Shown here in pieces: positions 28,737 through 55,973 of a stretch of DNA of 64,000 nucleotides (the first letter of the stretch is position 1; the number at the start of each line of letters is the position of its first letter). The stretch spans positions 14,833 to 78,832 of the forward strand of contig JAPPAB010000099.1 of the NCBI GenBank assembly GCA_026705765.1, in the 5' to 3' direction. The notes beneath the pieces were generated by a model, which was given only the letters and a program-made list of their open reading frames with translations, did not search any database and was not told where the DNA came from. Source of the DNA: Gemmatimonadota bacterium. GTDB lineage: Bacteria > Latescibacterota > UBA2968. The position numbers were made by a program, and so were the translations under genes.

Positions 28737-31700
28737 ATGGGCGGTCAAAGATTTTTGTTTTTTAGATGGATACTCGTTGGGCTGTTTTGCCTCAATGCCG
28801 AGGTTTTTGCAGGCGAGGCCAGGCATGTGTGGACGTCCTTTCGGCAAGAAGATGGACTGGCGCACAATGTGGTGACGGCTGTGTTGCAGACACCCGATGG
28901 GGCGATGTGGTTTGCCACGCTGGGTGGGGTGTCGCGCTATGACGGGCGTTTATGGAAGAAGTACGGGGTTGAAGATGGGCTGCCGGGAAATGCTATTCAG
29001 GATCTGGTTGCCGCACCCGATGGGGCATTGTGGGCTGCTGTGGGACGGGGTTTTGGTCGTGAAGCACGACAGGGACTGGCTTATTTTTTTGGCGAGGAAT
29101 GGAGGGGGATTGATCTGCCAGAAGAATTGAGGGGGCGAGGGGGCTTGCGCCAGATTTTGGGGCTGGATGGTGGTCGCTCCTGTCTGGTGACCGATGCAGG
29201 TCACTTGTTGCGCTTTGATGGCGCAGATCTTTATTTGGTGATGTTAGATGGTCAGCCGCTTCAAGGTGTTCAGAGCTTGATGGCCGATGCAAATGGGAAA
29301 GTGTGGGTCGCTTATGGGGGGCGAGGGGGCAATGTTTTGTTTGGCCCGGGAATGGGACGGGGGGGACGCGGTGAACCGGGTGGCAGAGGCAGGCGCGGTG
29401 GTTTTAGAGGGGCAGACGGTCCCGAAGGTGGCAGAGGGCGAGGTGATTTTAGAGGGGCAGACGGTCCCGAAGGTGGCAGAGGGCGAGTTGAACTGGGTGG
29501 TCGGGGCAGGCGTGGTGATTTGAGGGATATGGACGGTCCTGATGGTCGTGGAGGGCGAGGTGGAAGACCTGACGAGTTTGAGCAGGGTATGGGGTTATTG
29601 GATGTGGATACGGGGGAATGGACGACGATAGCAGATATGGATAGTTTGAGCAATGTATCTGTGTGGGCGATGGCGCAAAGTGCCGATGGCGCGCTCTGGT
29701 TTGGTACCGATGAGAACGGGCTTAAGCGGTATTATTCGGGACAATGGGAAACATTTACAACTGAGGACGGGTTGCCTTCTAATCGGGTGCAGGTGATTCG
29801 CTTTGCACAGGATGGAACGGTGTGGATTGGTACGCCGGCTGGCGCAGCTTTTCGAGATGCGGGCGGACAATGGCGAATTTTTACAGAGCGCGAGGGATTG
29901 CCCAATAGCTATGTGGTCGATATCTGTATTGCTGCGGATGGGGCAATTTGGGTGGGTACGCGTGGGGGGGTTGCGCGTTTGGGGCTTTCGGGGTGGTTGC
30001 ACCACAGGAACTGGCCAGGGATGAATGATCGCGGTGCTTCGATTTTCGCTCTCGGTGAAGATGGTCAGCTCTGGGTTGGCAATGATGCGATTTACAAATT
30101 TGAGCGGGATTCCTGGCATGTGGCACATGGGTTAGAAGATGTGCGCGGGCGTTTGATCGATTTGTTTGTCGATGGAAAAGGACACCTCTGGACTGTAACG
30201 CCGTTTCAATTGTTGCGTTATGATGGCGAGGTATGGGAGGTGATAAGGCCCGATCGTCGAATGGGATTGGGATTTCGAGCCGTGTGCCCTGCACAAGATG
30301 GCGGCGTGTGGGCAATTACGCGCTCAGGTGTTCAGCGATTCGATGGGCAGGTATGGACGGCTCTGTTTTCCTCACAGGGTCTGGCGCAGATAGAGAGCAA
30401 TCCCGAAAGGTCCAGCATTTCGATTTGCGAGGCGAGCGATGGCAGTTTGTGGCTGGGGCAGGTGGATGGCGTGATGCATCTGATGGATGGGGAGCAGCGG
30501 AAATACACTGCTGCTGATGGGATACCAGGTGGGCCGATTACTGTGGTTGCCGAAGATATTGGTGGACAGATATGGATTAGTTCACTGCTTGAAGGGGTAG
30601 CGCATTTTAATGGGCAGCGATGGCGACGGGTTCCGGGCGCAGATCAGGCGCAGTTTAATGGGGTGAATCGGATATTTCCCGCCAATGATGGCAAGGTGTG
30701 GTTGGCTTCGCCGATTGATGGCGCGATTCACACCGATGGGTTTGCCTGGGTGCGCTATACGGTTCAAGAGGGGTTGCCGAGTACACAGGTTTGGGATGTG
30801 GCACAAGATGCCGAGGGTTTGTTGTGGTTTGCGACGTCTGATGGGTTGGGGTGTTATGATCCCGATGGCGATGCGCCCGAGACACTTCTTTTGGCTCCGC
30901 CAGTTCAAATTGCGCCGTATCAAAATGCGTTGTTTGAATTTGCAGGGCAGGATGTGTGGAAGCAGACGCCAGATGGGTCATTGCAATATTCATGGCGGCT
31001 CGACGAGGGGGCGTGGTCCTCTTTTTCGCGCAATAACCGGGTTTTGTTGGAGGACATTGATGCTGGCGGTCACAAATTTGAAGTGCGCGCTATGGATCTG
31101 GCTTTTAATGTGGATAAGACCCCCGCTGTGCAGGTGTTTGAGGTGTTGGCGCCTGTGTGGCAACGGCCCTGGTTTGTGGGATTGAGTGGCGTTTCGTTGC
31201 TCATCGTGCTGGTTACGACGGGATATGCGTTTCAAAAGCACAAGCGCTGGCGCATAGCACAGACGCAGTTGATCGATGAGTTGGAGACGGAACTTCAGGA
31301 AGCCCACGATATGCAGATGGGGCTGTTGCCCCGAGATCCCGTGCGCGAGAGAGGGTTTGAGGTGGTGGGCAGGTGTTTGCCAGCCAATCATGTCGGCGGT
31401 GATTATTTCACGTATTTCTGGTTGGACGACGATCGGAAAATACTGGGGTTTGGAGCCGCAGATGTGTCGGGTAAGGCGATGCAGGGTGCTGTGCGGGCTA
31501 TGCAATTGAGCGGGATGTTGCACTATGAGGTTCGCGCGGCACAGACGCCGATAGATGTGTTGCGGAATTTGAATCTCGTTTTGCAAGAGCAATTTGATGC
31601 GGCGAGTTTTGTGACGTGCTGTTTGGGGACGCTGGATTTAGAGACGGGAGAGATTGTTCTGGCCAATTCCGGGCATCCCTATCCCTATCGGGTGTCTGTG

Positions 31701-32021
31701 GGCGGTGATTTGCAGATGATAGAGTTGATGTCTGTGCCTCTGGGTATGACGTTGCCGCCCGAGGTGGATACCGAGCCTAAAGAAACGCGTGCGTTTTTGG
31801 ATTTTGGCGATATGCTGGTGCTCTACAGCGATGGGGTGACGGATATGCAAAATGCCGCGGGAGAGTTTTACGAGGAGGCGCGGTTGGAGGCTTTGCTAAA
31901 AGAACACGCGGGCGCGAGTGCCGATGTTTTGATCGATACGGTGATTGATGATCTGGTTCGGTTTCGCGCGTCGGCGGCACAGACAGATGATGTGACGCTT
32001 CTGGTTATTAAGAGGCGGTAG
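28737..32021 (+). CDS. Two-component-regulator beta-propeller (Y_Y_Y-type) protein fused to a PP2C/SpoIIE-family phosphatase, with an RG-rich low-complexity insertion
   Basis: Repeated propeller blades with conserved W/G positions, a transmembrane segment, and a C-terminal PP2C core (GDYFTYFWLDD, LYSDGVTD). An RG-rich tandem repeat lies in the propeller region. Confidence 0.65.
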   Translation: MGGQRFLFFRWILVGLFCLNAEVFAGEARHVWTSFRQEDGLAHNVVTAVLQTPDGAMWFATLGGVSRYDGRLWKKYGVEDGLPGNAIQDLVAAPDGALWAAVGRGFGREARQGLAYFFGEEWRGIDLPEELRGRGGLRQILGLDGGRSCLVTDAGHLLRFDGADLYLVMLDGQPLQGVQSLMADANGKVWVAYGGRGGNVLFGPGMGRGGRGEPGGRGRRGGFRGADGPEGGRGRGDFRGADGPEGGRGRVELGGRGRRGDLRDMDGPDGRGGRGGRPDEFEQGMGLLDVDTGEWTTIADMDSLSNVSVWAMAQSADGALWFGTDENGLKRYYSGQWETFTTEDGLPSNRVQVIRFAQDGTVWIGTPAGAAFRDAGGQWRIFTEREGLPNSYVVDICIAADGAIWVGTRGGVARLGLSGWLHHRNWPGMNDRGASIFALGEDGQLWVGNDAIYKFERDSWHVAHGLEDVRGRLIDLFVDGKGHLWTVTPFQLLRYDGEVWEVIRPDRRMGLGFRAVCPAQDGGVWAITRSGVQRFDGQVWTALFSSQGLAQIESNPERSSISICEASDGSLWLGQVDGVMHLMDGEQRKYTAADGIPGGPITVVAEDIGGQIWISSLLEGVAHFNGQRWRRVPGADQAQFNGVNRIFPANDGKVWLASPIDGAIHTDGFAWVRYTVQEGLPSTQVWDVAQDAEGLLWFATSDGLGCYDPDGDAPETLLLAPPVQIAPYQNALFEFAGQDVWKQTPDGSLQYSWRLDEGAWSSFSRNNRVLLEDIDAGGHKFEVRAMDLAFNVDKTPAVQVFEVLAPVWQRPWFVGLSGVSLLIVLVTTGYAFQKHKRWRIAQTQLIDELETELQEAHDMQMGLLPRDPVRERGFEVVGRCLPANHVGGDYFTYFWLDDDRKILGFGAADVSGKAMQGAVRAMQLSGMLHYEVRAAQTPIDVLRNLNLVLQEQFDAASFVTCCLGTLDLETGEIVLANSGHPYPYRVSVGGDLQMIELMSVPLGMTLPPEVDTEPKETRAFLDFGDMLVLYSDGVTDMQNAAGEFYEEARLEALLKEHAGASADVLIDTVIDDLVRFRASAAQTDDVTLLVIKRR
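29403..29491 (+). repeat. Intragenic tandem repeat (about 45 bp x2, 43/45 identical) encoding FRGADGPEGGRGRGD
   Basis: tttagaggggcagacggtcccgaaggtggcagagggcgag occurs twice in tandem, within a broader Gly-Arg-rich segment. Confidence 0.8.
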
Positions 32022-33929: not shown

Positions 33930-35231
33930 TTACCGTGCCAGGCCGATAAATGCGCCCAGGACGAGGGCAACGACGCCGAGCAGGGATAGGAGAAGGGCGC
34001 CGATGGCGATGTGAAGCATTTTGGGTTCAAGTTGGTCGAGATAGGCTTCGAGTGTTTCGATGCCCGAGCGCATAGCGCGTTCGATGGGGTCGGGGAGGTG
34101 CTCGACGAAGGGTATTTTTCGCCGAGAGAGTTCGTCGATGTATTGAATATTTTTGATGTTGTGACGGGCGTTGAAGGTGTGTTCGACGAATTTGCGAGTT
34201 GCAAAGCGCTGTACCGGATCGCGAATTTCGGACAGGTGAAGGGTTTGTGGGTCGATGGTGCTGGATAGTTTGAAGCAGTGTGTGGTTTTGTCGGGGTCGT
34301 CTGGATCGGGTTCGATTTCGCCTTTGACAATGCGTCCCAATATGGTGAGGTCGTGATAGTTGAGGTAGTGATAGCGCCCGCCTTTTTCGCGGCCCAACAG
34401 GCTTTCAATGCGCTGGCGCAAGATGTCGGGGTCGTCTTTGCTCTGGCGGAGATGTTCGGAAATTTTGGCGTTGAAGCATCGCGCATAAAATTTTAGAAAG
34501 TCCCGGACTATGGGCGAGGTATAACTGCCTTTGGCGTTGATGAGACGACGCACAAAGCCGAGGTAACGGGGATTTGTGTATAGCCGCGCAGCGATGTCGA
34601 ATGAACCTCTGGTGAGTGCTGTCGATTCGCGCATCTGTGACTTGATGGCGGTGTCGATTTGCACGCTCATCTGGATCAGTGCGGTGTCTTCGTCGTCTTC
34701 GCGCACGATGGACCGGGTTGGGTCTTCGGGTTCGTCGCGGGCGAGAAAGGGCGTGGTTTCGCCCGAGGCAAAGCTGCCAAGCCCGCCTTCTATACCCTGT
34801 CTGATCATGATTCGAGAAGCGGCTTCTTCTATTTCCGCTTCTGTTTTTTTTAAGAGCTCTTCGGGGAGTTCTGCGTCCTGTTCGGGTACGAGGGCAGAGA
34901 TGTTGTCTGCAAAGATTTGAACTTGAGATTTGTTGTCGAATACGTTGAGATAGGGTTGTTGCATGACTTCGGGCAACAGATGCTGTGTGAGGGTGTTGCC
35001 CCGCTGTCCTTTGAAGGCGGTGTAGAGTGCTTCGTGCAGTGAGGTGAAGGGAACCACGCGCGTTGCGACGAGTGCGCGATCTGTGCCGTAGGTGAAGACG
35101 TAGAGATTTTCCCAATAGCACTTGCGGTAGTATGGCCGGCCGGTTTTGGAGGAGAAGGCGAAGCGGTATTTTGGATCGACAATGCGTTCCATCGGTTCCT
35201 CCTGTTGGAAATGGATGGTTTCAGGGTACAA
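33930..35231 (-). CDS. Hypothetical protein with a C-terminal transmembrane anchor
   Basis: 433 aa with no recognisable domain; C-terminal IAIGALLLSLLGVVALVLGAFIGL. Its stop codon abuts the dsbD stop. Confidence 0.4.
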   Translation of the reverse strand: MYPETIHFQQEEPMERIVDPKYRFAFSSKTGRPYYRKCYWENLYVFTYGTDRALVATRVVPFTSLHEALYTAFKGQRGNTLTQHLLPEVMQQPYLNVFDNKSQVQIFADNISALVPEQDAELPEELLKKTEAEIEEAASRIMIRQGIEGGLGSFASGETTPFLARDEPEDPTRSIVREDDEDTALIQMSVQIDTAIKSQMRESTALTRGSFDIAARLYTNPRYLGFVRRLINAKGSYTSPIVRDFLKFYARCFNAKISEHLRQSKDDPDILRQRIESLLGREKGGRYHYLNYHDLTILGRIVKGEIEPDPDDPDKTTHCFKLSSTIDPQTLHLSEIRDPVQRFATRKFVEHTFNARHNIKNIQYIDELSRRKIPFVEHLPDPIERAMRSGIETLEAYLDQLEPKMLHIAIGALLLSLLGVVALVLGAFIGLAR

Positions 35232-35256
35232 TAATACGTTATTTTGGAAGGGAAAG

Positions 35257-37326
35257 ATGAACTATTTTCGGAGCAATCGGTTTCTCAATACGTTGCCCGA
35301 TTGGGAAACGGGTGAGCCGATAGAAGGTGCGCTGGAAAATTATTTACCGCGTGTGCGCGCACTGTTACATCGCATGGATAATCCCCAGGCGCGGTTTAGC
35401 TCTGTTATTGTTGGGGGGACAAATGGCAAGGGTACGGTGAGTTATTTGCTGGCTGAGTTGTTGCGGGCAGCGGGTTTTCGCGTGGGGCTTTATACGTCGC
35501 CGCATTTGCACACGGTGCGCGAGCGGATATGCGTTGATGGCGAGGTGCTCGCGCGCGATGTGTGGGCTGAGGGCGTCGCACATTTTTACGAGAAAAGCCG
35601 CGATTTTGAGCGCGAAGGCTGGGGTGCGTTTAGCAAGTTTGAGGCGCTCACGGTTTTGGCGGCGCATCATTTTGCGCGGGCAAATGTGGATTGGGCTGTT
35701 TTTGAGGTGGGGCTGGGTGGGCAATTTGACGCGACCAATGCGTGGGATTCGAAGGTTGCTGTGTTGACGGCGATTCATCTGGATCACACGGATGTGTTGG
35801 GCAATACGCTGCGCGAGATTGCAGCGGATAAGGTACATATTGCGCGTTCGGGAAGGCCGCTGTTTACGGGGTCAGGACAGGTGCCTGAGGTTTTGAAGTT
35901 ATTGGAAAGAGAATGCGCGCTTCGGGGTGCGGCATTGCATGTGGTCGATGAGAAAATGGACGATATGGCGGATCGACCAGTTACTTTTCGGGAGAATGCC
36001 GCGCTGTCGGTTGGTGTGGCGCGTCATGTTGTAGATGGGTGCGGGATGGTGTTGGCAGATGAATGGGTGCGGGATGTGGTTTTGAATCGGGCTCTGCCCG
36101 GGCGCTTTGAGGTGGTTCGGAAGACGTTGATTTTAGATGGGGCCCACAATCCGGATGCGGTTCGCGCATTGGTCCGCGATTTGCAAGTTCTATCGGATAA
36201 GTGGCGATTTGTGGTGGGTGTTAATAAGGGGCACGATGCACGGGGTATTTTGCAGGCTCTTTCGCCTCTGGCCGCCGAGGTTGTTTTGACGCAGTCGGCG
36301 CATCCGAAGGCCATTTCTGTGGCGCGTTTGAGCGCGCTGGTTCCAGAGGGGCTGTGTGTGCGGTGTGAGACAGGGGGTTTGAGTTTTTTGACGGAGGTTT
36401 CCCAACAGCCTACGTGTGTCCTGGGGTCGCTGTATCTGGTGGCGTTGGCCCGCGAGGTGCTGGATTTGCCCGGGGAGGCGGACAGTTTTGGCGAGGATGT
36501 GATTTTAGAGAGTTTGCGGTGTTTTGAGATCGCGTGTCGGCAGTTGGACGTGGGGTATGAGGCGGTGTCGGCAGATGGCAATGTGATTCGGGTGGAGAGA
36601 GAGAGAAAGCCGCTGTATTTTTTGCGAAATAAACATCCGTTTAACGATTATGTTTCTGGAAGATTGGCGGAGGATAAGGGGTATCAATACGAGGTGTTTG
36701 ATCGGGCGAATATTACAGTGCCCAAAACGATGACGGTGTTCAATCCTCTATCTGATCGGCGGTTTGATCGGTATAAGACGCATGCTTCTGTCTCAGATAT
36801 TGTAAGTGATGTGGTGCAACACATGTCTTTTCCGGTTGTGGTGAAACGCAATCGCGGATCTATGGCACAGGGCGTGTATCTGGAGGCGAATGCAGAGGGT
36901 TTGCATTCGCGCTTGCAAGACTTGTGTGTGGAAAGCAGCCGATTGGACAATGTGTTGTTGATCCAGGCTTATGTCGAGGGACCTGAGTATCGCATTGTGG
37001 GCAGCGAGGATGAGTTGTTGCTCGCATATGAAAAACAAAATGACTCAGATATTGAAGGAGAGGATATCAATCCCCTGCATCGGGTGGGGGGCAGGGCGGT
37101 TGCGGTCGTGGATGAGGGGTTATTGGAGGAGTTTCGAGTATTGACACGGGCGTTGAATCGGGTGTTGAATTTGGGATTTTACGCAATTGATTTGATCGCG
37201 AGTTCCGATGGGTTTTTTGTTTTGGAAGTGAATCCCAATCCCATATGTCACTTTTATAATGCGGATAATGGACGCGGCGATTTTGTGCAAATTTATCGGT
37301 ATCTGATACGAAAATATTTGCTGTAG
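35257..37326 (+). CDS. Mur-ligase (FolC/CapB-like) domain fused to a C-terminal ATP-grasp (RimK-like) domain
   Basis: GGTNGKGT P-loop and DGAHN Mur-ligase motif in the N-terminal ~450 aa. ATP-grasp features (FPVVVKRNRGSMAQGVYL, IQAYVEGPEYRIVG) in the C-terminal ~230 aa. ATG at 35257 with SD GGAAGGGAAAG. Confidence 0.6.
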   Translation: MNYFRSNRFLNTLPDWETGEPIEGALENYLPRVRALLHRMDNPQARFSSVIVGGTNGKGTVSYLLAELLRAAGFRVGLYTSPHLHTVRERICVDGEVLARDVWAEGVAHFYEKSRDFEREGWGAFSKFEALTVLAAHHFARANVDWAVFEVGLGGQFDATNAWDSKVAVLTAIHLDHTDVLGNTLREIAADKVHIARSGRPLFTGSGQVPEVLKLLERECALRGAALHVVDEKMDDMADRPVTFRENAALSVGVARHVVDGCGMVLADEWVRDVVLNRALPGRFEVVRKTLILDGAHNPDAVRALVRDLQVLSDKWRFVVGVNKGHDARGILQALSPLAAEVVLTQSAHPKAISVARLSALVPEGLCVRCETGGLSFLTEVSQQPTCVLGSLYLVALAREVLDLPGEADSFGEDVILESLRCFEIACRQLDVGYEAVSADGNVIRVERERKPLYFLRNKHPFNDYVSGRLAEDKGYQYEVFDRANITVPKTMTVFNPLSDRRFDRYKTHASVSDIVSDVVQHMSFPVVVKRNRGSMAQGVYLEANAEGLHSRLQDLCVESSRLDNVLLIQAYVEGPEYRIVGSEDELLLAYEKQNDSDIEGEDINPLHRVGGRAVAVVDEGLLEEFRVLTRALNRVLNLGFYAIDLIASSDGFFVLEVNPNPICHFYNADNGRGDFVQIYRYLIRKYLL

Positions 37327-37359
37327 GGGCGGGTTTTAAACCCGCCCCTACAGGCGATT

Positions 37360-40300
37360 TTATATCTCTACTGGAACTATTTTTTGCGTTTTCGGCTGAT
37401 ATACCATGCCTGTAAGTAATTTTTCGAGTGTGTTGGTGACGCGGAAGACAACGCGATTTTTGCCCTGTTTGAGGTGGACTGTTTTTCCAGTCCAGCAATA
37501 GGGCGCCCAGGCGCGTACGCCCAGAGACTGTCCGTTGATTGTTATTTCGACGATGTCGGAGAGGGTTTTCACGGTGCGTTCGAGGTCTATTTTGAAATGC
37601 GCGGTTTTGGGCAGGGTTTTGAAATCGATGTCCCGGGTATATGACACGGTGCCAGCATAGAAGGGCAGTCCCTGCGCTTTGAGGTCAAAAATAGGACCGC
37701 TATCTTGAAGGGGTGTTAGTTTGGGATATACGCTGCGCCAGGATTTGACCTGAAAACGTCCAAAGAGATACAGGGCATCGACGAGGCCATCGCCCGGGTT
37801 GTTGGCTTCCACGCGGATGGCGATCACATTTTTGCCCTTGTTTATGCGCTGTCCCACGGAACACGTCGCGTTGGCGTGATCGAATCGGAAGGTGGGACGA
37901 AATGCATTGCTCGGCAATTTGGAACCGTTGATGTAGATCTGATGCTCTCCCTGAATAGCACTTCGATCCATGACCAGGGAGAGTTTGCTGGGGACGATGT
38001 CTGCGATAAAGGTTGTTCGGTACCAAAAAATCGTTTTTTCTGCTGAATCGTCAAGAGGTTGTGGGCGCGTTTCGGACCATCTGCTATCGCTATAAGTCGG
38101 TTGATGCCAGTTCTGGCGCAGGCCTGTGTTAGACGGGTCGATTTTTGTTTTGAATTTGTCCAGGCGCAGTGCGTTATCTTCTTCTGGGTCAACTTTCCAG
38201 TGGCCTGTTAAATTGAGTTTGAGCGTTTCTACCGGAAGCTCTTCTTTTTTTGTTTTTGCAGGGCCTGTTACGATCATGTGTGATTGCAGCCGATCAAAGG
38301 AGAGGTCGATGCGGCTCATTTCTCCGGTGGATTTGACCACAAGGGGTGTGCGGTTGCCCGTTTCCAAATCCCATTTTTCTATTTTTCTACTGGTGGGAGG
38401 TATATAAATTTGCGTTGTAATGGGTGAATTTCCCCGATTGGCAAAAAAGAATATGTGGTGCTTTTCATCTGTGCGGTGGTGATATTGTATCGCGTCGGCG
38501 TTTTTTCCGTCGGACATGATGCGTACTCGCCGGGGCAGAATTTCGTCGAGCAGGCGTTCCAGCATGAATGTCGCCTGATTTTTTTCTACCGTACCCCCCG
38601 TACGGATAAACATGAAGTTGTCTCGACTCAGCAGGTGGACGCCCGATTCGTGGCCGGTGTAATCGCGAATCATTCGCCCCGGTTCCATGTCGGTTAACCG
38701 CGAAAATCCCTCGACGATTGATGCGCCTTCTTGAATATCCTCAATGGGCAATAATCCCAGGGCGATGACGAGGCCGCCTGCATTGATAAATGCGCGTAGC
38801 TTATCAAAAGCTTCGCGTTCCAGATTGGTGATGGGGGGAAGGACCAGGACCGTGTAGCGCGTTTTGCCGATCTGCAATTGGCGGTTGATGATTTCCGCCT
38901 GGGCGAGGAGGGCCGGGTCAAGGCTTTGAAATGGCCGTTGCATCTGATACAGGGCGCGGGCAATACAAGCCCAGTCGGCAACGAGGTTATTGGTCAGTGT
39001 TTCTTCATCGGGATCATAGCCGACATAAGACCAGTTGTGAAACGGGTGTGCGAGGTGTGCCCACAAGCTGGTGACAGGGTCGAGGAGTGCAATATCGGCT
39101 ACTTGCTGACCCCGGCACAAGAGATGGGCAAGTCGCCCCGCGTAGTCAGACAGCAGGTGAAAGTGTTTCCAGTAGGGATTTTGATGAAATAGAGATGTGG
39201 CGTGTTTGCGCAATCCGTCGAGTGTGTAGTAGAGGGCGTGGGGCGCAAAGAAGTTGGTGCCGTGGGTGCCGAGGGTATCGAGCTGTGCTTTCATATCTTG
39301 CAGCGTGGTTGCCCAGCCCGTGTTTTGAAAACAGGTATTGATTATGCGCGAAGTGTTTGTCTGGGCGGCGAGTGCCGTTGCAAATTCAGGGCTGTGGCGA
39401 TATGATATGACGTTTTCTCTGGTGCTTTCAACGTCGAGACTGCCGCCTGTACCAGGTATGGGTATGGAAGTGCGATGAGCATTGCGAAGCGGGGTTATAT
39501 CGCTCGCGTAATTGAGGTCGTGCTCTTTGCACCAGTCGGCACTGCGCGCGCTGTCGTGCCGCTGTTGCAGTTCGCTCAGGGTTTGAAAATAGTCGTAGCG
39601 AATGCGACCCGTGTTGGGACCAAAGTAGGTTATGAGGGCAGGCAAGCAGGACAGGAGATTGTAGCCGTTGCGCGTTTGGAAGTAGTCGGGCAATACGGAT
39701 GACCAGGGCAGGCGATCTTTGGGGAAATGCGTTTCCGAGGTTAAAATGCCCTTTAAGGTTTTGCCCTGATAAGCGGAAAATTGTTCGATGTAGGGCTGTT
39801 GAATGGTCTGATGCAGGGTGCGGACAGACTCTGGATTGAATCGATCGAGGTGTGAGCCGGGACAATCGCTATTTGCCGAGGGTTCTTGTAAAAAAACGAG
39901 CACGCGCCAGCGTCCGGCAGGTGCTTTCCAGTACAGGCGGCGGGTGGGGTTAAAAGATACGTAATTGTAGGGATGGTGGGCGGACACAGCACTGTTGTTG
40001 CGCAATGCGTGGTGTTGATGATTGACGCCTAGATAAGCGCTGATATCTTGTTTGTCTTCCCACAAACAGCGGTCTCTTCGCAAGGGAACAGCGAATGCTT
40101 GCAACACGGGTGCCCAGGGTAGCGTAAGGTCAACTTGTTGGCCGCCCTGTACAACGGTTTCGCGAAAGGTGAGTTGTTGTGCGACGAATTGGGGGTGGTT
40201 TAAGGTGATCTGGGTTGATCCAATACCACCTGGATAGCGGTATTCGTCGTGGATCCAGACATGGAGGCCATTTTCTTCTGCGGTTTCGAGTGCCAATTTT

Positions 40301-40527
40301 ACGCGCTCGAACCAGATGTGCGACAAATAGGGCGTTTTTAGCCCGGGACCTGTTGATAGGCAAAATCCACCCAGCCCTTTTTCGCTCATTTCGCGGATTT
40401 GGCGGACGAGTTCGTTTTCTTCTATGATGCCGTTCCATATCCAAAATGGAACGAGGCGATCAGCAGCAGGGGGATTGATGAAGTTTTTGAGGTCCATAAG
40501 TTCAGGGGATTTAGCTTGTGTCAGCAC
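37360..40527 (-). CDS. Large glycoside hydrolase-like protein (family uncertain)
   Basis: 1055 aa. N-terminal PFWIWNG...GLGGFCLSTGPGL region typical of a family of big bacterial GHs, with probable galactose-binding-like beta-sandwich C-terminal domains. Confidence 0.45.
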   Translation of the reverse strand: MLTQAKSPELMDLKNFINPPAADRLVPFWIWNGIIEENELVRQIREMSEKGLGGFCLSTGPGLKTPYLSHIWFERVKLALETAEENGLHVWIHDEYRYPGGIGSTQITLNHPQFVAQQLTFRETVVQGGQQVDLTLPWAPVLQAFAVPLRRDRCLWEDKQDISAYLGVNHQHHALRNNSAVSAHHPYNYVSFNPTRRLYWKAPAGRWRVLVFLQEPSANSDCPGSHLDRFNPESVRTLHQTIQQPYIEQFSAYQGKTLKGILTSETHFPKDRLPWSSVLPDYFQTRNGYNLLSCLPALITYFGPNTGRIRYDYFQTLSELQQRHDSARSADWCKEHDLNYASDITPLRNAHRTSIPIPGTGGSLDVESTRENVISYRHSPEFATALAAQTNTSRIINTCFQNTGWATTLQDMKAQLDTLGTHGTNFFAPHALYYTLDGLRKHATSLFHQNPYWKHFHLLSDYAGRLAHLLCRGQQVADIALLDPVTSLWAHLAHPFHNWSYVGYDPDEETLTNNLVADWACIARALYQMQRPFQSLDPALLAQAEIINRQLQIGKTRYTVLVLPPITNLEREAFDKLRAFINAGGLVIALGLLPIEDIQEGASIVEGFSRLTDMEPGRMIRDYTGHESGVHLLSRDNFMFIRTGGTVEKNQATFMLERLLDEILPRRVRIMSDGKNADAIQYHHRTDEKHHIFFFANRGNSPITTQIYIPPTSRKIEKWDLETGNRTPLVVKSTGEMSRIDLSFDRLQSHMIVTGPAKTKKEELPVETLKLNLTGHWKVDPEEDNALRLDKFKTKIDPSNTGLRQNWHQPTYSDSRWSETRPQPLDDSAEKTIFWYRTTFIADIVPSKLSLVMDRSAIQGEHQIYINGSKLPSNAFRPTFRFDHANATCSVGQRINKGKNVIAIRVEANNPGDGLVDALYLFGRFQVKSWRSVYPKLTPLQDSGPIFDLKAQGLPFYAGTVSYTRDIDFKTLPKTAHFKIDLERTVKTLSDIVEITINGQSLGVRAWAPYCWTGKTVHLKQGKNRVVFRVTNTLEKLLTGMVYQPKTQKIVPVEI

Positions 40528-40935: not shown

Positions 40936-41547
40936 ATGAACGAGCAAATTTACGGTCTTGTACTGGCCGCGGGTATGGCGCGGCGCATGGGGTCAACTAA
41001 GCAGTTGTTGCCCTTTGGTGACCGAACGGTTCTTCAAACGGTGGTCGATACGCTAAATGGTGCTGATCTGACTGGCGTTGTGGTGGTTTTGGGGCACGAT
41101 GCAGATGCTGTGCGCGAGAGTTTGCGCGGTCGGCCCGTGCTGTGTTGCGTGAATGATGCGTACCGCGAGGGGATGTTTTCCAGTGTGCTTTGCGGTCTTC
41201 GCCATTTGCCCGGGGATGCAGATGCGGTGCTGATCGCTCTCGGGGATCAGCCTCAGATTGAGTTGCGCGTTGTTCAGGCTGTGGTGCAGGCATACCGCGA
41301 GGGGGAGAGGGGTATTGTGATTCCCGTTTCGGGTGGAAAGCGCGGGCATCCGGTGTTGATCAATTTGTCGCGTTACCGGGGCGAGATTCTAAGGCTTTCT
41401 GGGGATGAGGGTCTCAAGCCGGTTATGCGCGGGCATCCGCAAGATACGCTGGAGGTGCCGGTGGGTGATGAGGGTATTTTGCGGGATCTGGATACGCCAG
41501 AAGATTATCGGGCGGAGATGGAGAGGCGAGGGATAAATGGAGAATAG
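40936..41547 (+). CDS. MobA-like NTP-transferase (molybdenum cofactor cytidylyl/guanylyltransferase-like)
   Basis: GLVLAAGMARRMGSTKQLLPF nucleotide-binding N-terminus. Confidence 0.6.
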   Translation: MNEQIYGLVLAAGMARRMGSTKQLLPFGDRTVLQTVVDTLNGADLTGVVVVLGHDADAVRESLRGRPVLCCVNDAYREGMFSSVLCGLRHLPGDADAVLIALGDQPQIELRVVQAVVQAYREGERGIVIPVSGGKRGHPVLINLSRYRGEILRLSGDEGLKPVMRGHPQDTLEVPVGDEGILRDLDTPEDYRAEMERRGINGE

Positions 41548-50424: not shown

Positions 50425-50578
50425 GAATAAGTTCCTCCACAATATATTCTCATATACCGTATATTGAGGTCGTTGTCAATGGTTTTGAGGTTTGATGCGC
50501 GAGGCGAGGGATGGGTTGCAGATGGAAGGCTATTGCTTGACACTATAAGCGTTTTCCTGTATTTTTCTCGCCCTGATA

Positions 50579-52216
50579 TTATGTGGCGGCATAGCTCAGC
50601 TGGTAGAGCAGTGGAATCATAATCCATGGGTCGGGGGTTCGAGTCCCTCTGCCGCTACCAAACGTATCGTCTCGCAGAACTTCTGACCTGTCCGGTTCAT
50701 GACAGGAACGAAATAAAGCGAGTTGAATCTCATCAGGGGTATAAATCAGTTGGTTGATGTGTAGCCTTAACAGGTCTTTCTGTTCCTCTGGTGTGGCTTC
50801 ATTATATAATTCTTCAAAGGTCATAAGTTTTTGCTTCATTTGAGCAACACTTATGGCCTTTTGTTTTGCCTCTGCCAGAGTTGCCTCGTTCTCCATCATC
50901 TCCTGTTCTATTTGGCTTTTTTGTTCTTCGAGGGCAATAATTTTCTGACTGATGGTTTTAAGGCCGACCTGCTGACCAGCGATGCTTTCCACCAGGACAT
51001 CCAGCTTCTTCTCAATATCTTTGAGGTTCCTGCGATGATTTTCCTGTGCTTGCCTTAAGGTTTTCATACGCTCCGATTGGCTTGTCGTAGCTTCTGCGAT
51101 AAGCTCTTGAACACGTTTTTGATCATCACTGAGTTGAATTAACCGATCAGCGACTACTTGTTCAAGGGCCGGTGCAGACACCGGCTTCATTTTGCATTCT
51201 TCGTTTCCACGATGGATTTTACAGGTGCAATGGTAGTAGAAATAGGGCTTTTTTTGGTGGTTTCGAGCCTGCGAAGGGGTCATGTGAGACTGGCACCAGC
51301 CACATTTAATCAGACCTTGAAGTAAGAAGGGGTGAAGGTTTTGTTTCCTCCCTCTTGTCCCAGAGACTCGGTTCGTTTCTATAACGGCTTGCACTTTATT
51401 CCACAATTCCATCGGGACAAGAGGATCATGCTGGCCTTCATATACCTTACCTTTGTGAGTAATTTTTCCAATATAAAATTCATTTTGGAGCATACGCATA
51501 ATCTGTGTCTTATTGAATTTTTTGCCAGAATAGACCTTATCCCTTCTCGACACATACGATTTTGTACGATAGCCTTTTTCATTTATGATTCGGGCTACGG
51601 CACGAAAACTTTGCTCTTTGACGTACGTCTGAAAAATTAAGATCACCAGTTCTCGTTCTGCTTCATTGGGCTTTAGAACGCCCTTGTTGTCCGGATCAAT
51701 GTCGTATCCAAGGAGGTGCTGTCCGCCATTACGTAGGCCCTTCTCAGCACGCCACTGCATTTTTTCTTTCGTGCGCTCACTGGTACGTTCTCTTTCTAAT
51801 TCAGCCGTTGCGAGAGAAATTGAGAGAGCAAACCGACCCATAGCGGTTGAGGTATCCCAATTCTCATTGATTGAAATGAATATGGTTTCGTTTTCTTCTA
51901 AAAATTCGTGGAATTGATAAAAGTCGATGATAGACCGGCTGACGCGATCAATTTTTGTGCATAACACCGCGTCAATCTTACCCTGCTCAATGTCTCGAAC
52001 CATTCGCTTGTATCCAGGGCGGTCTAAATTCTTACCCGATTTGCCTTCCTCACGATAGATTGCCACCGCTTTCCATTCTTCTTCTGGCGATGTGGAATCC
52101 TTGATTTCGACGTACTTCTGAAGCAGATCAATTTGGGTGTCCAAACTGCCATTTTTCACTTCGGCTTGCAGGTCGGTTGAGACCCGTGCATAAAGGCCAC
52201 ATTTTACCATATCCAT
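50579..52216 (-). CDS. Large serine recombinase (resolvase/invertase catalytic domain, recombinase domain, zinc ribbon)
   Basis: N-terminal YARVSTDLQ catalytic Ser motif, recombinase domain, Cys-rich zinc ribbon (CGWCQ...CTC), coiled coil. The last ~26 codons run antisense through the tRNA-Met gene with no in-frame stop. Confidence 0.8.
   Translation of the reverse strand: MDMVKCGLYARVSTDLQAEVKNGSLDTQIDLLQKYVEIKDSTSPEEEWKAVAIYREEGKSGKNLDRPGYKRMVRDIEQGKIDAVLCTKIDRVSRSIIDFYQFHEFLEENETIFISINENWDTSTAMGRFALSISLATAELERERTSERTKEKMQWRAEKGLRNGGQHLLGYDIDPDNKGVLKPNEAERELVILIFQTYVKEQSFRAVARIINEKGYRTKSYVSRRDKVYSGKKFNKTQIMRMLQNEFYIGKITHKGKVYEGQHDPLVPMELWNKVQAVIETNRVSGTRGRKQNLHPFLLQGLIKCGWCQSHMTPSQARNHQKKPYFYYHCTCKIHRGNEECKMKPVSAPALEQVVADRLIQLSDDQKRVQELIAEATTSQSERMKTLRQAQENHRRNLKDIEKKLDVLVESIAGQQVGLKTISQKIIALEEQKSQIEQEMMENEATLAEAKQKAISVAQMKQKLMTFEELYNEATPEEQKDLLRLHINQLIYTPDEIQLALFRSCHEPDRSEVLRDDTFGSGRGTRTPDPWIMIPLLYQLSYAAT
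50585..50660 (+). tRNA. tRNA-Met (anticodon CAT; elongator Met or tRNA-Ile2 type, probably not initiator)
   Basis: Manual fold: acceptor GGCGGCA, D-arm GCTC/GAGC, anticodon stem GTGGA/TCCAT with loop ATCATAA, T-arm GGGGG-TTCGAGT-CCCTC, CCA. G1-C72 pairing and absence of a 3xGC anticodon stem argue against initiator. Confidence 0.8.
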
Positions 52217-52314
52217 CCCCTTTGCTCTGTATTGTTTTATTTGGGAATTATATATAAATATATCTCCCGTCTATTTATTACAAATATACTTAAAAACAAT
52301 GCTTTATGCAACAT

Positions 52315-52524
52315 TTAATCACTGCCTTCACTTCCAGAAATACTGTTCAGAGTTGGTTTTTCCAACCTCCTCATATAAATGGTTTGACAGAGTTCTTTCA
52401 AGTGATCCATCCGTTCTTCGGGGGATAATTGGGCATAGGGGTTTTGGAGATTTGGAGCACCTTCTTCTATGACCGTAACAGGGATATTGTCCCAGTCGAT
52501 TTTTTGTCGTTTTGCCATAATCAC
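52315..52524 (-). CDS. Small hypothetical protein
   Basis: 69-aa ORF in an AT-rich region. Confidence 0.3.
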   Translation of the reverse strand: MIMAKRQKIDWDNIPVTVIEEGAPNLQNPYAQLSPEERMDHLKELCQTIYMRRLEKPTLNSISGSEGSD

Positions 52525-52594
52525 ACCTTTCTTTTTCTCAGGTGTGGTTTTTCCTACTCCCTGATATTGTTTTTAATGATTTGTTTTTGGAGTT

Positions 52595-52759
52595 TTATTT
52601 GTGCTGCACATCTTGTTTCAGAGCGTCTATTTTAATGGACTGCTCTTTCACAATATTGATTAACTCACCTTTCTGAATACGCAGTGTAATTGACCCCCAA
52701 AAAGAGGTGTCGAGTTCTTTCAGAAGTTGCGAAATTTCTTTGATTACCTGTGTTTTCAT
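52595..52759 (-). CDS. DUF2292 (YezD-like) small protein
   Basis: 54 aa MKTQVIKEISQLLKELDTSFWGSITLRIQKGELINIVKEQSIKID, with SD GGAG 7 nt upstream. The WGSITLxIQxGxLxxI core resembles YezD. Not in the ORF track (under 60 aa). Confidence 0.45.
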   Translation of the reverse strand: MKTQVIKEISQLLKELDTSFWGSITLRIQKGELINIVKEQSIKIDALKQDVQHK

Positions 52760-53633
52760 TTGTTGATCTCCTTCAGCGGCGTTGGCATTCAGCTTTGCCC
52801 ATTCGTCATCAAAGCCGCCTGATCTTGTCCAAATACGCCTTCACTTGGCCTCGAAAGATGCCGTGCTGGTGGCCCGGAAATAACTTGTCTGTCAACGCAT
52901 TTGCCGCCCGTTGAGATACACCCGCCTTTTTCTTATCGACTCCCAAAAGCCTTCTGATCTTGTCCTCATTGTAATCTGTCCAATTATCAAACCGATCCAG
53001 TGCCCAGCGATATGTTCAATTTTCACCATGCCCAAATAACCTCATTTGATAACAAGCCTGCCTGTCCAGTGCCCGACCACGCCGCCTGGTGGTCCTCTCT
53101 TTTTCCCTCTCAATCTCAATCACTTGGTTCAATGCCTGAGCAGATTTTGCCAAGCTCGCCGCATCAATTCGATAAGGCATTGTCGCCCATTGGATCACAA
53201 GTTTCTGTAAAGTCATTTTTGCCCTCACAGGTTGGGGGGTTTTTGGTTGCCGTTGTCCTTTGGTTTTTGCGCTATATTTTTCGACGCTCCGCGCCGGTCA
53301 GTTTGACTCTCGGTTTCCATAAGCTCGAGTACGCCGCCATCCCGAAATCTGTCTCCCTTCACCAACAGGTGCTATAGGTGTGCGAGGATCTTCATCATGT
53401 GCATCTTCCTCCTCGTACTCTGTACCTCCGCAGTGACTGCGGAGAGGGTTTTTGAAGTCAAGATTTTCCCAGGGACTCACACAGTGCGTTTTATATTGAC
53501 GCCTACAATCTTCTATTCAGTACTTCTTATATTATGTCCACCTCTAGAGCGGGTATCCTACCAGACGTAGAGGTGGTAAGTTTCAACCAGATGGTCGCAC
53601 GGAAGCCTACCACCTCTAGAGCGGGTATAGGTG

Positions 53634-54161
53634 TTAGAGGGGCGGAAAGGGTTTAAATTGTTTGTATTCCTGATGGCGGATCGCATCTGCTGCATAGATC
53701 GCTTCATTCCGCTCAAGCAACTTCGCTCGCTCTTCAGCCCTCAAGGCTTTGGCAGCGGCAAAGTCATCCATCCACTGGTGTCTGCGCAGGTAGTGTACAG
53801 ACGATACATTACCGGTACTAAAGAAGCCTTTTCCCTTTCCTTTTCGCCTTATGCGACCAATAAGCCCTAGGTCTAAGAGTTTTTTGGTTGCCTTCTCGAC
53901 GGTTGTCTTGCTCTTGGCACCTATGTCCTGAGCGATTGTTACATTGCTTACCCAGGTGAAAGCCCCATTTCCATATCCCATAGACATACTGCAATAGGTC
54001 TTGAGGACGCCATAGACACATTTTGCACTGTAGGGCACTTCATTGACGGGACGGCACATCAGCCACTTGGGTGTCATAAAAAACTCTTCATCGGACACAT
54101 TCAGGGCCTTGTCGTCCTTTTCTATCTCCTCCTGATAATACTTCATGACATCACTAAACAT
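53634..54161 (-). CDS. Hypothetical protein with probable winged-helix DNA-binding region
   Basis: Central helix-turn-wing segment (VTIAQDIGAKSKTTVEKATKKLLDLGLIGRIRRKG); basic region follows. Confidence 0.4.
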   Translation of the reverse strand: MFSDVMKYYQEEIEKDDKALNVSDEEFFMTPKWLMCRPVNEVPYSAKCVYGVLKTYCSMSMGYGNGAFTWVSNVTIAQDIGAKSKTTVEKATKKLLDLGLIGRIRRKGKGKGFFSTGNVSSVHYLRRHQWMDDFAAAKALRAEERAKLLERNEAIYAADAIRHQEYKQFKPFPPL

Positions 54162-54546
54162 CTCTCTTTCCCTCTTGTTGTACCCCCGACCGGGTACGGA
54201 GACAGATTAAAAAAACATTTTTATTTGCTAATTTCATTTTCGTTCGTATCTTAACATTGAATACTCAATGGGGGTTCTTTGGGTGTTCTTTGCAAGCTAT
54301 TCTCTGTGCCGTCGGCTCCCTACAAGCCTGACGGCACTTTTTTTACCTCTCGTCGGATGATAAAAAACATAGGTCGTTGCAACTCAAATTTCAACCCCAA
54401 AAATAATTTGTCGCAAATTTCCCACTTTTTCTGATAGAAAAACTTTTTTCTTGTCTGCTGTGGAAAGTTCTGCGTATATTTACGTATATACACAATAGGA
54501 ATTTTCTAAGTATCGGTCAAGTCAAACACGAGAGAGGAAGCCAAGT

Positions 54547-55590: not shown

Positions 55591-55662
55591 AAAAGGGACC
55601 AAACAATTTGAATTGTTCAAACGTATCAACCTCAAAATTCAGAGTGAGCGCACAAAAAAGTC

Positions 55663-55699
55663 TGGCGAGCCATTCGATTAAAATGGCTCGCCAGACTCA
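55663..55699. repeat. Perfect 15-bp inverted repeat (stem-loop)
   Basis: GTCTGGCGAGCCATT-cgattaa-AATGGCTCGCCAGAC, preceded by an A-run. Confidence 0.7.
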
Positions 55700-55973
55700 G
55701 CACGACACAATTTTGTATTGACTTCATGCTGGCAAATGTACAGTGTTTACAAGAGCAAGTTTTGGCTTCAACTGTTCAGCATTCGCAATAACACTTTCGA
55801 CTCCAGAACTGATATTGCATGTCTCTTTGATGTTGCTGTTCTATACGCTAGAATTTCCAGAATAGATCGTGCTGGTCTAATTCATTGTCCAGCAATTCAT
55901 TTTGTAATCGCACAGGCTCAGGCAACCGACACAGCGATTCGATAAGCAGAAACAAACTTTTAGCTCAATGAGT

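What the first reader, a model, noticed from the sequence alone, without database searches (positions are those of the whole stretch)
35257..37326. Reverse-order cyanophycin-synthetase-like architecture: Mur-ligase (FolC/CapB-like) domain followed by an ATP-grasp domain
Cyanophycin synthetase is ATP-grasp then Mur-ligase. Here a FolC/CapB-type Mur ligase (P-loop GGTNGKGT, DGAHN) is followed by a RimK-like ATP-grasp. Both domain types catalyse amide-bond amino-acid ligation (poly-gamma-glutamate synthesis, folate polyglutamylation, RimK). The fusion could make an unusual poly-amino-acid or modified cofactor.
Basis: partly seen in the sequence, partly recalled or inferred. Interest (0 to 1): 0.5.

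Follow-up and report, generated by a model that had tools for sequence, protein, structure and literature searches.

The report
FolC fused to an ATP-grasp ligase
This gene encodes a complete folate-glutamylating enzyme (FolC) fused to a second, intact ATP-grasp ligase; every sampled member of the uncultured phylum Latescibacterota has it, nobody has characterised it, and it may build an unusual glutamate tail on folate.

Summary
Window 35257-37326 (+) is one 689-aa gene. Residues 1-402 are a full-length FolC, scoring above NCBI's curated cut-off. Residues 415-689 are a short ATP-grasp ligase whose nearest solved folds are ArgX/LysX/RimK. It is neither cyanophycin synthetase nor CapB/PgsB, which score far below their cut-offs.

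The fusion is not an assembly accident. At least 110 genome-collection hits and more than 120 protein clusters share it, almost all from Candidatus Latescibacterota. All 81 compared orthologues (80 loci plus the window copy) keep every catalytic residue of both halves. Both halves are equally conserved, and the junction has an identical length in all of them.

The tail is a whole member of an uncharacterised family of ~270-aa standalone ATP-grasp proteins, so its function cannot be transferred by homology.

My best-supported mechanism is inferred, not shown. FolC adds gamma-linked glutamate, and the ATP-grasp half then ligates a further, probably alpha-linked, glutamate onto the same tail. This would resemble CofF on F420, MptN on methanopterin, and the alpha-linked folylpolyglutamates reported in E. 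coli.

I could not test whether a second folC exists in these genomes. I rate it a new variant of known kinds, of moderate interest.

The parts
35205..35235 (+). Promoter-like sites (TTGGAA-16-TACAAT and an overlapping variant) 22-25 nt upstream of the ATG, in the 64-nt divergent intergenic region.
   Evidence: consensus scan only, 9/12 matches; weak evidence. The upstream gene call ends at window 35192.
35257..37326 (+). CDS of the 689-aa FolC::ATP-grasp fusion protein, stop codon included.
35257..36462 (+). FolC (dihydrofolate synthase/folylpolyglutamate synthase) half, aa 1-402. It is complete: it aligns to within a few residues of the natural C-termini of the solved FolC/FPGS proteins.
   Evidence: TIGR01499 scores 272.9 bits against a cut-off of 162.65. 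It aligns to 1o5z residues 29-431 of 442 and to 1fgs residues 24-422 of 428. The 17 best Foldseek hits are all FolC/FPGS, with TM 0.73-0.80.
35413..35436 (+). FolC P-loop GGTNGKGT (aa 53-60). G54 and K58 are invariant in 81 orthologues.
35830..35832 (+). K192, which aligns with K185 of L. casei FPGS. That this is the carbamylated active-site lysine is from my own knowledge. It is invariant in 81 orthologues.
   Evidence: Alignment; conservation.
36136..36150 (+). DGAHN motif of the Mur-ligase C-terminal domain (aa 294-298). D294 and H297 are invariant.
36463..36498 (+). Junction (aa 403-414, DLPGEADSFGED). pLDDT is low in the model, yet the sequence is conserved (64% mean identity) and the length is fixed.
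   Evidence: The stretch from reference aa 390 to 425 is exactly 36 residues in all 81 orthologues.
36499..36654 (+). Short N-subdomain of the ATP-grasp half (aa 415-466): one helix and three strands. It replaces the ~100-aa pre-ATP-grasp domain of RimK/LysX.
   Evidence: Secondary structure. The rimK_fam match starts only at profile position 83 of 276. The same short N-subdomain is present in the standalone homologues.
36655..37323 (+). ATP-grasp central and C-terminal domains (aa 467-689). The ATP and Mg ligand positions D473-K474, K530, Q570, E577, D645, E657 and N659 are all invariant.
37321..37353 (.). Perfect 15-bp-stem hairpin (10 G-C pairs) overlapping the stop codon, flanked by T-runs on both strands. 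It is a likely bidirectional terminator between the convergent fusion gene and the GH106-like gene.

Best explanation
The gene encodes a bifunctional, two-active-site ligase that acts on the glutamate tail of folate.

The N-terminal 402 residues are a complete FolC. FolC uses ATP to activate a carboxylate (of dihydropteroate, or the gamma-carboxylate of the last glutamate of a folate) and adds L-glutamate.

The C-terminal 275 residues are a catalytically intact, short ATP-grasp carboxylate-amine ligase of the RimK/LysX/ArgX structural class. Its characterised relatives all work on a terminal glutamate. I infer that this half takes the folyl-(gamma-Glu)n made next door, activates the free alpha-carboxylate of its terminal glutamate, and adds one or more further amino acids, most likely alpha-linked L-glutamate. 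The result would be a capped or mixed gamma/alpha-linked tail.

Shown: both halves are complete, both keep all catalytic residues, they are equally constrained, and they are rigidly joined across a whole phylum.

Inferred: that the ATP-grasp substrate is the folate tail, that the incoming amino acid is glutamate, and that the linkage is alpha.
For: - FolC identity is secure. TIGR01499 scores above its cut-off over the full length. The sequence aligns end to end with solved FolC/FPGS proteins. The top 17 structural matches are all FolC/FPGS.
- Both halves look catalytically competent and under equal selection. All 81 species-level orthologues keep G54, K58, E150, H177, K192, D294 and H297 in FolC, and D473, K474, K530, Q570, E577, D645, E657 and N659 in the tail. 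Mean pairwise identity is 58.2% for FolC and 58.5% for the tail, and 21.9% and 21.8% of columns are invariant.
- The fusion is structurally integrated. The junction has no length variation in 81 sequences.
- Among the best 150 representatives found with the tail, FolC is the only recognisable fusion partner. Four hits of 354-390 aa carry ~85-95-aa N-terminal extensions that match no Pfam family.
- There is precedent for an ATP-grasp alpha-L-glutamate ligase finishing a cofactor tail started by a gamma-glutamyl ligase: CofF on F420 (PMC8498797) and MptN on methanopterin (PMC3249071).
- Alpha linkages have been reported in the distal folate tail of E. coli (PMC1971073; Ferone et al. 1986, PMID 3536925 and 3536926, cited).
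- Anecdotal context support comes from distant standalone family members. One sits next to a CofE/FolC2-type gamma-glutamyl ligase (L091; also L102 and L160/161). One overlaps folD (L092).
- In 32 Latescibacterota loci the fusion is followed, with overlapping stop and start, by a Cys/Met-metabolism PLP enzyme. That is a gene of the methionine/one-carbon area.
Against: - No experiment exists, and no characterised close homologue of the tail exists. The tail and its standalone relatives fall below every curated NCBIfam cut-off: rimK_fam 40-62 bits against 143, CofF and MptN 25-39 bits against 300-350.
- The closest standalone clade (33-37% identity) sits in a context of pentose-phosphate genes, SOD, YebC, LexA and MutS, with no folate gene.
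- A systematic scan of 80 metagenome loci of the standalone family found no FolC or FolD neighbour. Only 3 loci had a CofE-like neighbour (L102, and L160/L161, which gave identical hit coordinates and scores). The commonest neighbours were XRE-HTH and ImmA/IrrE genes. The family is therefore functionally heterogeneous.
- The conserved neighbours of the fusion itself are molybdenum-cofactor genes (moaA, xdhC, mocA-like), not folate genes.
- The Arg of the RimK 'fRSNLHRGG' motif appears to be replaced in the tail ('EDINPLHRVGG', read by eye from the alignment), so details of catalysis may differ.
- I could not inspect model coordinates to see whether the two active sites face each other.
Confidence: 0.4

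Rival explanations
1. The two halves work on unrelated substrates. The FolC half is the ordinary housekeeping enzyme. The ATP-grasp half ligates an amino acid onto something else, such as a protein C-terminus (as RimK does on ribosomal protein S6), a peptide, or a small metabolite such as a low-molecular-weight thiol. On this view the fusion only ensures co-expression or a shared supply of glutamate and ATP.
For: Standalone relatives of the tail occur in contexts that have nothing to do with folate. One group lies next to SOD and thioredoxin genes. Another lies in XRE-HTH and ImmA/IrrE cassettes. One is downstream of NagZ, a phosphoribosyltransferase and PNP_UDP in a Methylococcales genome. 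The top fold matches ArgX, LysX and RimK all act on protein C-termini.
Against: The junction is rigid and fixed in length, and the two halves evolve at the same rate across 81 species. That argues for a single functional unit. Among the best 150 representatives FolC is the only recognisable fusion partner, and fusions of two ligases that use the same co-substrates usually reflect consecutive steps (general Rosetta-stone reasoning, an inference). The tail has only a ~50-aa N-subdomain in place of the ~100-aa pre-ATP-grasp domain of RimK/LysX.
Confidence: 0.25
2. The ATP-grasp half acts elsewhere in folate metabolism, not on the finished tail. It might make p-aminobenzoyl-glutamate or a Glu-Glu dipeptide for the FolC half. 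Alternatively it might carry out all polyglutamylation while the Mur-ligase half is only a dihydrofolate synthase.
For: The fusion evidence is the same as for the main explanation. RimK-type enzymes can polymerise free glutamate (PMC8141765, citing Kino et al. 2011). FolC-like proteins can be mono- or bifunctional, and this cannot be told from sequence (PMC1971073).
Against: There is no precedent for an ATP-grasp in these particular steps. The FolC half has the complete C-terminal glutamate-ligase domain expected of an enzyme that adds glutamate itself.
Confidence: 0.12
3. The enzyme makes a non-folate polymer. This would be a cyanophycin-like or poly-glutamate-like poly-amino-acid, built by alternating use of a Mur-ligase site and an ATP-grasp site. 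It is the first reader's 'reverse cyanophycin synthetase' idea, and it matches the name NCBI gives some orthologues.
For: The protein combines the same two ligase superfamilies as CphA1. NCBI labels some orthologues 'cyanophycin synthetase' (P0035 and P0058).
Confidence: 0.06
4. The tail is not a catalyst. It would be a regulatory or oligomerisation module, for example one that senses ATP or glutamate and tunes FolC activity.
For: None directly. ATP-grasp folds are sometimes recruited as non-catalytic modules (my own knowledge).
Against: Every ATP- and Mg-binding residue tested is invariant in 81 orthologues that have diverged to 47% identity. That is not expected of a pseudo-enzyme.
Confidence: 0.07

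Closest known systems
FolC (bifunctional dihydrofolate synthase / folylpolyglutamate synthase; Mur-ligase superfamily, TIGR01499)
   Same: Residues 1-402 are a full-length member. The score is above the curated cut-off, the P-loop, SPH loop, E150, K192 and DGAHN are all present and invariant, and the fold matches solved FolC/FPGS at TM 0.73-0.80.
   Different: It carries an extra 287 residues, which form a second, independent ATP-dependent ligase. In most Latescibacterota loci the neighbours are moaA and a Cys/Met PLP enzyme.
CofF (gamma-F420-2:alpha-L-glutamate ligase) and MptN (tetrahydromethanopterin:alpha-L-glutamate ligase)
   Same: They are ATP-grasp ligases that add an alpha-linked glutamate to the end of a cofactor side chain (PMC8498797; PMC3249071). 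For CofF the chain was started by the gamma-glutamyl ligase CofE. This is the reaction logic I propose for the tail.
   Different: They are separate proteins of methanogenic archaea, acting on F420 or methanopterin. The tail family scores only 25-39 bits against their cut-offs of 300-350, and neither appears among the 25 NCBIfam matches listed for the window protein. The resemblance is one of mechanism, not of family membership.
RimK / LysX / ArgX (ATP-grasp ligases acting on a C-terminal glutamate of a protein)
   Different: The rimK_fam score is 53 bits against a cut-off of 143. The N-terminal domain is cut down to ~50 residues. The Arg of the RimK 'RSNLHRGG' motif appears not to be conserved (read by eye). 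The tail is fused to FolC, not free-standing.
Cyanophycin synthetase CphA1
   Same: One polypeptide combines an ATP-grasp ligase and a Mur-type ligase, both forming amide bonds.
GshF/GshAB (bifunctional glutamate-cysteine ligase / glutathione synthetase)
   Same: The design is the same. A first ATP-dependent ligase is followed by a C-terminal ATP-grasp that performs the next ligation on the first enzyme's product. Standalone relatives of the tail give weak matches to the ATP-grasp part of GshAB, including its short N-subdomain (NF002688, profile 437-586).
   Different: The first domain there is a glutamate-cysteine ligase, not a Mur ligase. The tail matches are far below the cut-off (30-34 bits against 425).
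The alpha-carboxyl-linked folylpolyglutamate-forming activity of E. coli (Ferone et al. 1986)
   Same: It is the chemistry proposed here: addition of alpha-linked glutamates to the distal part of a gamma-linked folate tail (PMC1971073).
   Different: It is known only as an enzyme preparation. To my knowledge no gene has been assigned, and I did not find one in the literature searches. No sequence comparison is therefore possible.

Membership tests
FolC (DHFS/FPGS), NCBIfam TIGR01499 | Whole-protein score above the curated cut-off, with full-length coverage of the model. | tested here: met
   272.9 bits against 162.65; aa 30-401 match profile positions 1-399 of 400.
FolC (DHFS/FPGS), NCBIfam TIGR01499 | Mur-ligase catalytic residues: the P-loop GTNGKG, the acidic Mg ligand, the lysine at the carbamylated-Lys position, and DGAHN in the C-domain. 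| tested here: met
   G54, K58, E150, D176-H177, K192 (aligned to K185 of 1fgs), D294 and H297 are all invariant in 81 orthologues.
FolC (DHFS/FPGS), NCBIfam TIGR01499 | FolC fold. | tested here: met
   The 17 best Foldseek hits are all FolC/FPGS structures, with TM (target-normalised) 0.73-0.80.
FolC (DHFS/FPGS), NCBIfam TIGR01499 | Enzymatic activity on dihydropteroate or folate, and being the organism's functional folC. | not testable with these tools
   Only 64 kb of the genome is available. No second folC or other folate gene lies in the window.
ATP-grasp superfamily (carboxylate-amine ligases) | ATP-grasp fold with conserved Lys, Glu/Gln and Asp/Glu/Asn ligands for ATP and Mg. | tested here: met
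RimK family alpha-L-glutamate ligase (TIGR00768) | Score above the curated cut-off, and a full three-domain architecture that includes the N-terminal pre-ATP-grasp domain. | tested here: not met
   53.4 bits against 143.4. The match starts at profile position 83 of 276. The N-subdomain is only ~50 aa.
CofF (TIGR04443) / MptN (NF040720) cofactor alpha-L-glutamate ligases | Score above the curated cut-off. | tested here: not met
   Neither is among the 25 matches listed for the window protein. Standalone relatives reach 23-39 bits against cut-offs of 300-350.
Cyanophycin synthetase CphA1 (TIGR02068 / NF010623) | Score above the cut-off, and N-domain, then ATP-grasp, then Mur-ligase order. | tested here: not met
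Poly-gamma-glutamate synthase PgsB/CapB (TIGR04012) | Score above the curated cut-off. | tested here: not met
   32.3 bits against 222.7, as a partial match to aa 165-258.
Uncharacterised short (~270 aa) ATP-grasp family (this work; labelled 'glutathione synthase/RimK-type ligase-like' by JGI) | End-to-end homology including the short N-subdomain, with shared motifs (T/H)PFN, DK, EYR, YEK, (S/N)PLH, E-x-N-x-x-P and DNG. | tested here: met
   222 representatives have E<1e-10. The full-length ones listed cover tail residues ~16-287 at 23-37% identity. The motifs are visible in alignment A3.

The most novel reading that the evidence does not exclude
Latescibacterota make a folate whose side chain differs from the textbook all-gamma polyglutamate: an alpha-capped, mixed gamma/alpha, or non-glutamate-terminated tail. 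One bifunctional enzyme would build it. The short ATP-grasp family to which the tail belongs would then include the first sequence-defined folyl-glutamate alpha-ligase. That would give a handle on the alpha-linked folylpolyglutamate activity seen in E. coli extracts in 1986, to which, as far as I know, no gene has been assigned.
Probability: 0.3. Interest if true: 0.7.

Novelty: new variant of a known kind. Interest (0 to 1): 0.5.

Why it matters
Folate tails control how well the cofactor is retained in cells and how tightly one-carbon enzymes bind it. The textbook picture has a single enzyme, FolC, making an all-gamma tail.

A phylum-wide, strictly conserved fusion of FolC to a second active ligase suggests that a whole uncultured bacterial phylum finishes its folate differently. 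It also offers a ready-made protein that can be cloned and tested for alpha-glutamylation of a folate. The biochemistry was reported forty years ago, but to my knowledge no gene has been assigned to it.

The work also corrects database names. The same protein family is currently labelled 'cyanophycin synthetase', 'ATP-grasp domain-containing protein', 'Mur ligase family protein', 'hypothetical protein' and 'dihydrofolate synthase'. It flags an uncharacterised family of ~270-aa ATP-grasp enzymes as well. If the tail turns out to act on something unrelated, the finding reduces to an unusual but harmless gene fusion.

Tried and rejected
- **Cyanophycin synthetase or CapB membership.** Rejected on curated scores, domain order and fold ranking.
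- **Transferring function from standalone homologues of the tail.** The closest clade (P0127, P0128, P0130, P0133, P0134) is uncharacterised. It always lies in a Trx, transaldolase, transketolase, SOD, YebC, LexA, MutS neighbourhood with no folate gene.
- **Systematic context scan of the standalone family.** The first attempt failed because the alignment was too diverse. The second returned 80 loci. None had a FolC or FolD neighbour, 3 had a CofE-like neighbour, and the commonest neighbours were XRE-HTH and ImmA/IrrE genes. This gives no general folate link.
- **A 'split' version of the fusion.** P0124 (264 aa) looked like a free-standing tail. It is a contig truncated by adapter-derived sequence, so it is not evidence for a split.
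- **N-terminal extensions on some standalone homologues** (P0164, P0167, P0213, P0247). They match no Pfam domain.
- **Literature.** No paper in the held library describes a FolC-ATP-grasp fusion or links RimK to folate.
- **The AFDB fold library** was unavailable.
- **Inter-domain geometry.** Model coordinates are not exposed, so I could not examine it. I have only pTM 0.67 for the whole protein against 0.82 for the tail alone.
Full report
**1. What is there**

The ORF list shows a 726-codon frame from a TTG at 35146 to the stop at 37326. The true start is the ATG at 35257. In an alignment of 30 homologues, 27 begin at the corresponding Met. The public gene call on the source contig, an ENA metagenome contig of 286 kb, is the same 689-aa protein.

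An identical protein is in NCBI as 'MAG: ATP-grasp domain-containing protein [Gemmatimonadetes bacterium]'.

**2. Domain identity**

Pfam finds Mur_ligase_M, Mur_ligase_C and RimK, all above their gathering scores. NCBIfam places aa 30-401 in the FolC subfamily. TIGR01499 scores 272.9 bits against a cut-off of 162.65 and covers profile positions 1-399 of 400.

Other candidate families fall far short:
- cyanophycin synthetase: 43.6 bits against 850
- PgsB/CapB: 32.3 bits against 222.7
- MurE and relatives: also far below their cut-offs

The FolC half aligns to within a few residues of the natural C-termini of solved FolC/FPGS proteins: 1o5z to residue 431 of 442, and 1fgs to residue 422 of 428. 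The extra sequence therefore starts exactly where an ordinary FolC stops. The precomputed domain PF27239 seen in all homologues is 'FOL3_C', which is part of FolC.

An AlphaFold model of the whole protein has pLDDT 81 and pTM 0.67. Its best 17 matches in the PDB are all FolC/FPGS structures, and no solved structure covers both halves.

**3. The tail**

A profile of the tail matches RimK in the PDB at E=8e-6. That alignment puts K530 on the 'VVK' lysine and puts D645, E657 and N659 on the 'VDIL...EVN' Mg ligands.

The tail is not RimK proper. rimK_fam scores 53 bits against 143, and the match begins at profile position 83. In place of the ~100-aa N-domain there is one helix and three strands (aa 415-466).

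**4. The tail is a whole protein of an uncharacterised family**

An exhaustive search of 1.84 billion representatives with the tail found 537 hits, 222 of them with E<1e-10. Apart from fragments of the fusion itself, most are free-standing proteins of ~265-320 aa. They cover tail residues ~16-287 at 23-37% identity.

They share the short N-subdomain and a set of motifs: (T/H)PFN, DK, EYR, YEK, (S/N)PLH, ExNxxP and DNG. None reaches a curated cut-off. Sources call them 'glutathione synthase/RimK-type ligase-like ATP-grasp enzyme'.

FolC is the only recognisable fusion partner among the best 150. Four hits of 354-390 aa carry ~85-95-aa N-terminal extensions that match no Pfam family.

**5. How widespread and how constrained**

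The species-representative genome collection holds 110 relatives. The 80 fetched are nearly all Candidatus Latescibacterota MAGs. A few are labelled Gemmatimonadota or Planctomycetota, but most of those labelled loci share the same moaA-fusion synteny. All match at full length, at 47-93% identity.

In 81 orthologues every catalytic residue of both halves is invariant. The region spanning the junction (reference aa 390-425) is exactly 36 residues in all of them. The two halves are equally conserved: mean pairwise identity is 58.2% and 58.5%, and 21.9% and 21.8% of columns are invariant.

This is a single, rigidly joined, two-active-site enzyme under purifying selection. It is not a misassembly or a decaying appendage.

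**6. Context**

In the window the gene is monocistronic.
- A divergent 420-aa unknown gene starts 64 nt upstream.
- A promoter-like site lies at 35205-35235.
- A perfect 15-bp hairpin at 37321-37353 separates the gene from a convergent GH106-like gene.
- No other folate gene lies in the 64 kb.

Across the phylum there are two arrangements.
- In 45 loci a true moaA lies immediately upstream on the same strand, with a median gap of -19 nt (TIGR02666, 350 bits against a cut-off of 284). In 32 loci a Cys/Met-metabolism PLP enzyme follows with overlapping stop and start. xdhC, coxE-like and coxD-like genes lie nearby.
- In the window's arrangement (27 loci) the GH106 gene follows, and a MocA-like cytidylyltransferase lies ~3.5 kb downstream (window 40936-41547).

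The persistent company of molybdenum-cofactor genes is unexplained. Molybdopterin has no carboxylate for either ligase to act on (my own knowledge). I therefore treat this as conserved synteny of pterin-cofactor housekeeping genes, not as a functional clue.

**7. Trying to learn the tail's function from relatives**

The closest standalone clade is small (11 clusters, some on ~1-Mb contigs). It always lies after SOD in a Trx, transaldolase, transketolase block and before YebC, LexA and MutS.

More distant members gave two suggestive cases. One lies in a CofE/FolC2-type gamma-glutamyl ligase, Pth, ATP-grasp, MFS string (L091). One overlaps the start of folD (L092).

A systematic scan of 80 metagenome loci did not generalise this. 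It found no FolC or FolD neighbour and 3 CofE-like neighbours. The commonest neighbours were an XRE-type HTH gene and an ImmA/IrrE metallopeptidase. The family is evidently diverse, and function cannot be transferred by homology.

**8. Mechanism**

These points are shown:
- a complete FolC
- a complete, catalytically competent ATP-grasp ligase of the structural class whose characterised members act on a terminal glutamate (RimK, LysX, ArgX) or add glutamate to cofactor tails (CofF, MptN; PMC8498797, PMC3249071)
- a rigid fusion that is conserved across the phylum

This part is inferred. The second site works on the product of the first, adding an alpha-linked glutamate or a short alpha-linked run to folyl-gamma-glutamates. 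This is the CofE-then-CofF logic of F420. It also matches the report that E. coli folates carry alpha linkages in the distal tail (PMC1971073; Ferone et al. 1986, PMIDs cited).

I put about 0.85 on 'both halves are active ligases in one functional unit' and about 0.4 on the specific folate-tail reaction.

The rivals are:
- an unrelated substrate for the tail (0.25)
- another step of folate metabolism (0.12)
- a non-catalytic module (0.07)
- a non-folate polymer (0.06)

**9. Comparison with the known, and novelty**

The protein is a member of FolC and of the ATP-grasp superfamily. It is not a member of RimK, CofF, MptN, CphA or PgsB: the curated cut-offs were tested and not met.

It works, I propose, like FolC plus a CofF/MptN-type capping ligase. 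Its design resembles GshF, in which a first ligase is fused to a C-terminal ATP-grasp that does the next step.

Searches of the held literature found no description of this architecture. Database names for it are inconsistent, and 'cyanophycin synthetase' among them is not supported here.

I class it as a new variant of known kinds and score interest at 0.5.

**10. Limits**

I could not test whether it is the only folC of these genomes. I could not see model coordinates. There is no biochemical evidence.

Noticed in passing
window 1-50000; also L001-L011, L014, L017, L039, L047: The GC skew is extremely strong. (G-C)/(G+C) is +0.22 over the first 50 kb, up to +0.37 in 2-kb windows, and positive inside genes on both strands (for example +0.185 in the minus-strand gene 37360-40527). 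The same +0.24 to +0.28 appears in the 22-kb loci of the closest relatives, while other Latescibacterota clades are near 0. This is an unusual strand asymmetry restricted to one sub-lineage.
   Followed up: partly
window ~50500-57500: The skew collapses and GC drops to 0.42-0.47. This stretch holds a large serine recombinase (50579-52216, minus strand) and a tyrosine integrase (54547-55590, plus strand). It is probably an integrated mobile element.
   Followed up: no
window 40936-41547; L021 3532-4584; L026 1510-2961: The fusion gene keeps molybdenum-cofactor neighbours in both syntenies. In 45 loci a true moaA lies immediately upstream, with xdhC and coxD/E-like genes nearby. In the window's arrangement a MocA-like cytidylyltransferase lies ~3.5 kb downstream. 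No biochemical link to FolC is apparent.
   Followed up: partly
window 37321-37353: A perfect 15-bp-stem hairpin (10 G-C pairs, 3-nt loop) overlaps the stop codon of the fusion gene. T-runs lie on both strands between the convergent genes.
   Followed up: no
window 28737-32021: A 1094-aa protein with Reg_prop-like propeller repeats and a C-terminal SpoIIE phosphatase domain carries a long Gly/Arg-rich low-complexity insert (GRGGRGEPGGRGRRGGFRGADGPEGGRGRGDFRGADGPEGG...).
   Followed up: no
L101, L107 and about a dozen more of L093-L172: In 11-15 of 80 metagenome loci the standalone members of the short ATP-grasp family are preceded on the same strand by an XRE-type HTH gene, an ImmA/IrrE (M78) peptidase and two small unknown ORFs. 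This cassette resembles mobile-element or stress-response modules.
   Followed up: partly
L082-L089: The closest standalone relatives of the tail come from a lineage in which some members sit on ~1-Mb contigs. There the gene always follows an Fe/Mn SOD at the end of a Trx, transaldolase, (PGI), transketolase, (6PGD) block. The same loci carry a single called gene with both Ribosomal_S6 and Ribosomal_S18 domains.
   Followed up: no
L173 1-104: This public 1087-bp metagenome contig begins with adapter-like sequence that translates to AEDGIRDLVRSRGLGDVYKRQ. This makes a truncated fusion gene look like a free-standing 264-aa ATP-grasp protein (P0124).
   Followed up: yes
window 7393-9024: A gamma-glutamyltranspeptidase homologue lies 26 kb upstream. 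It acts on gamma-glutamyl compounds, but there is no evidence linking it to the fusion gene.
   Followed up: no
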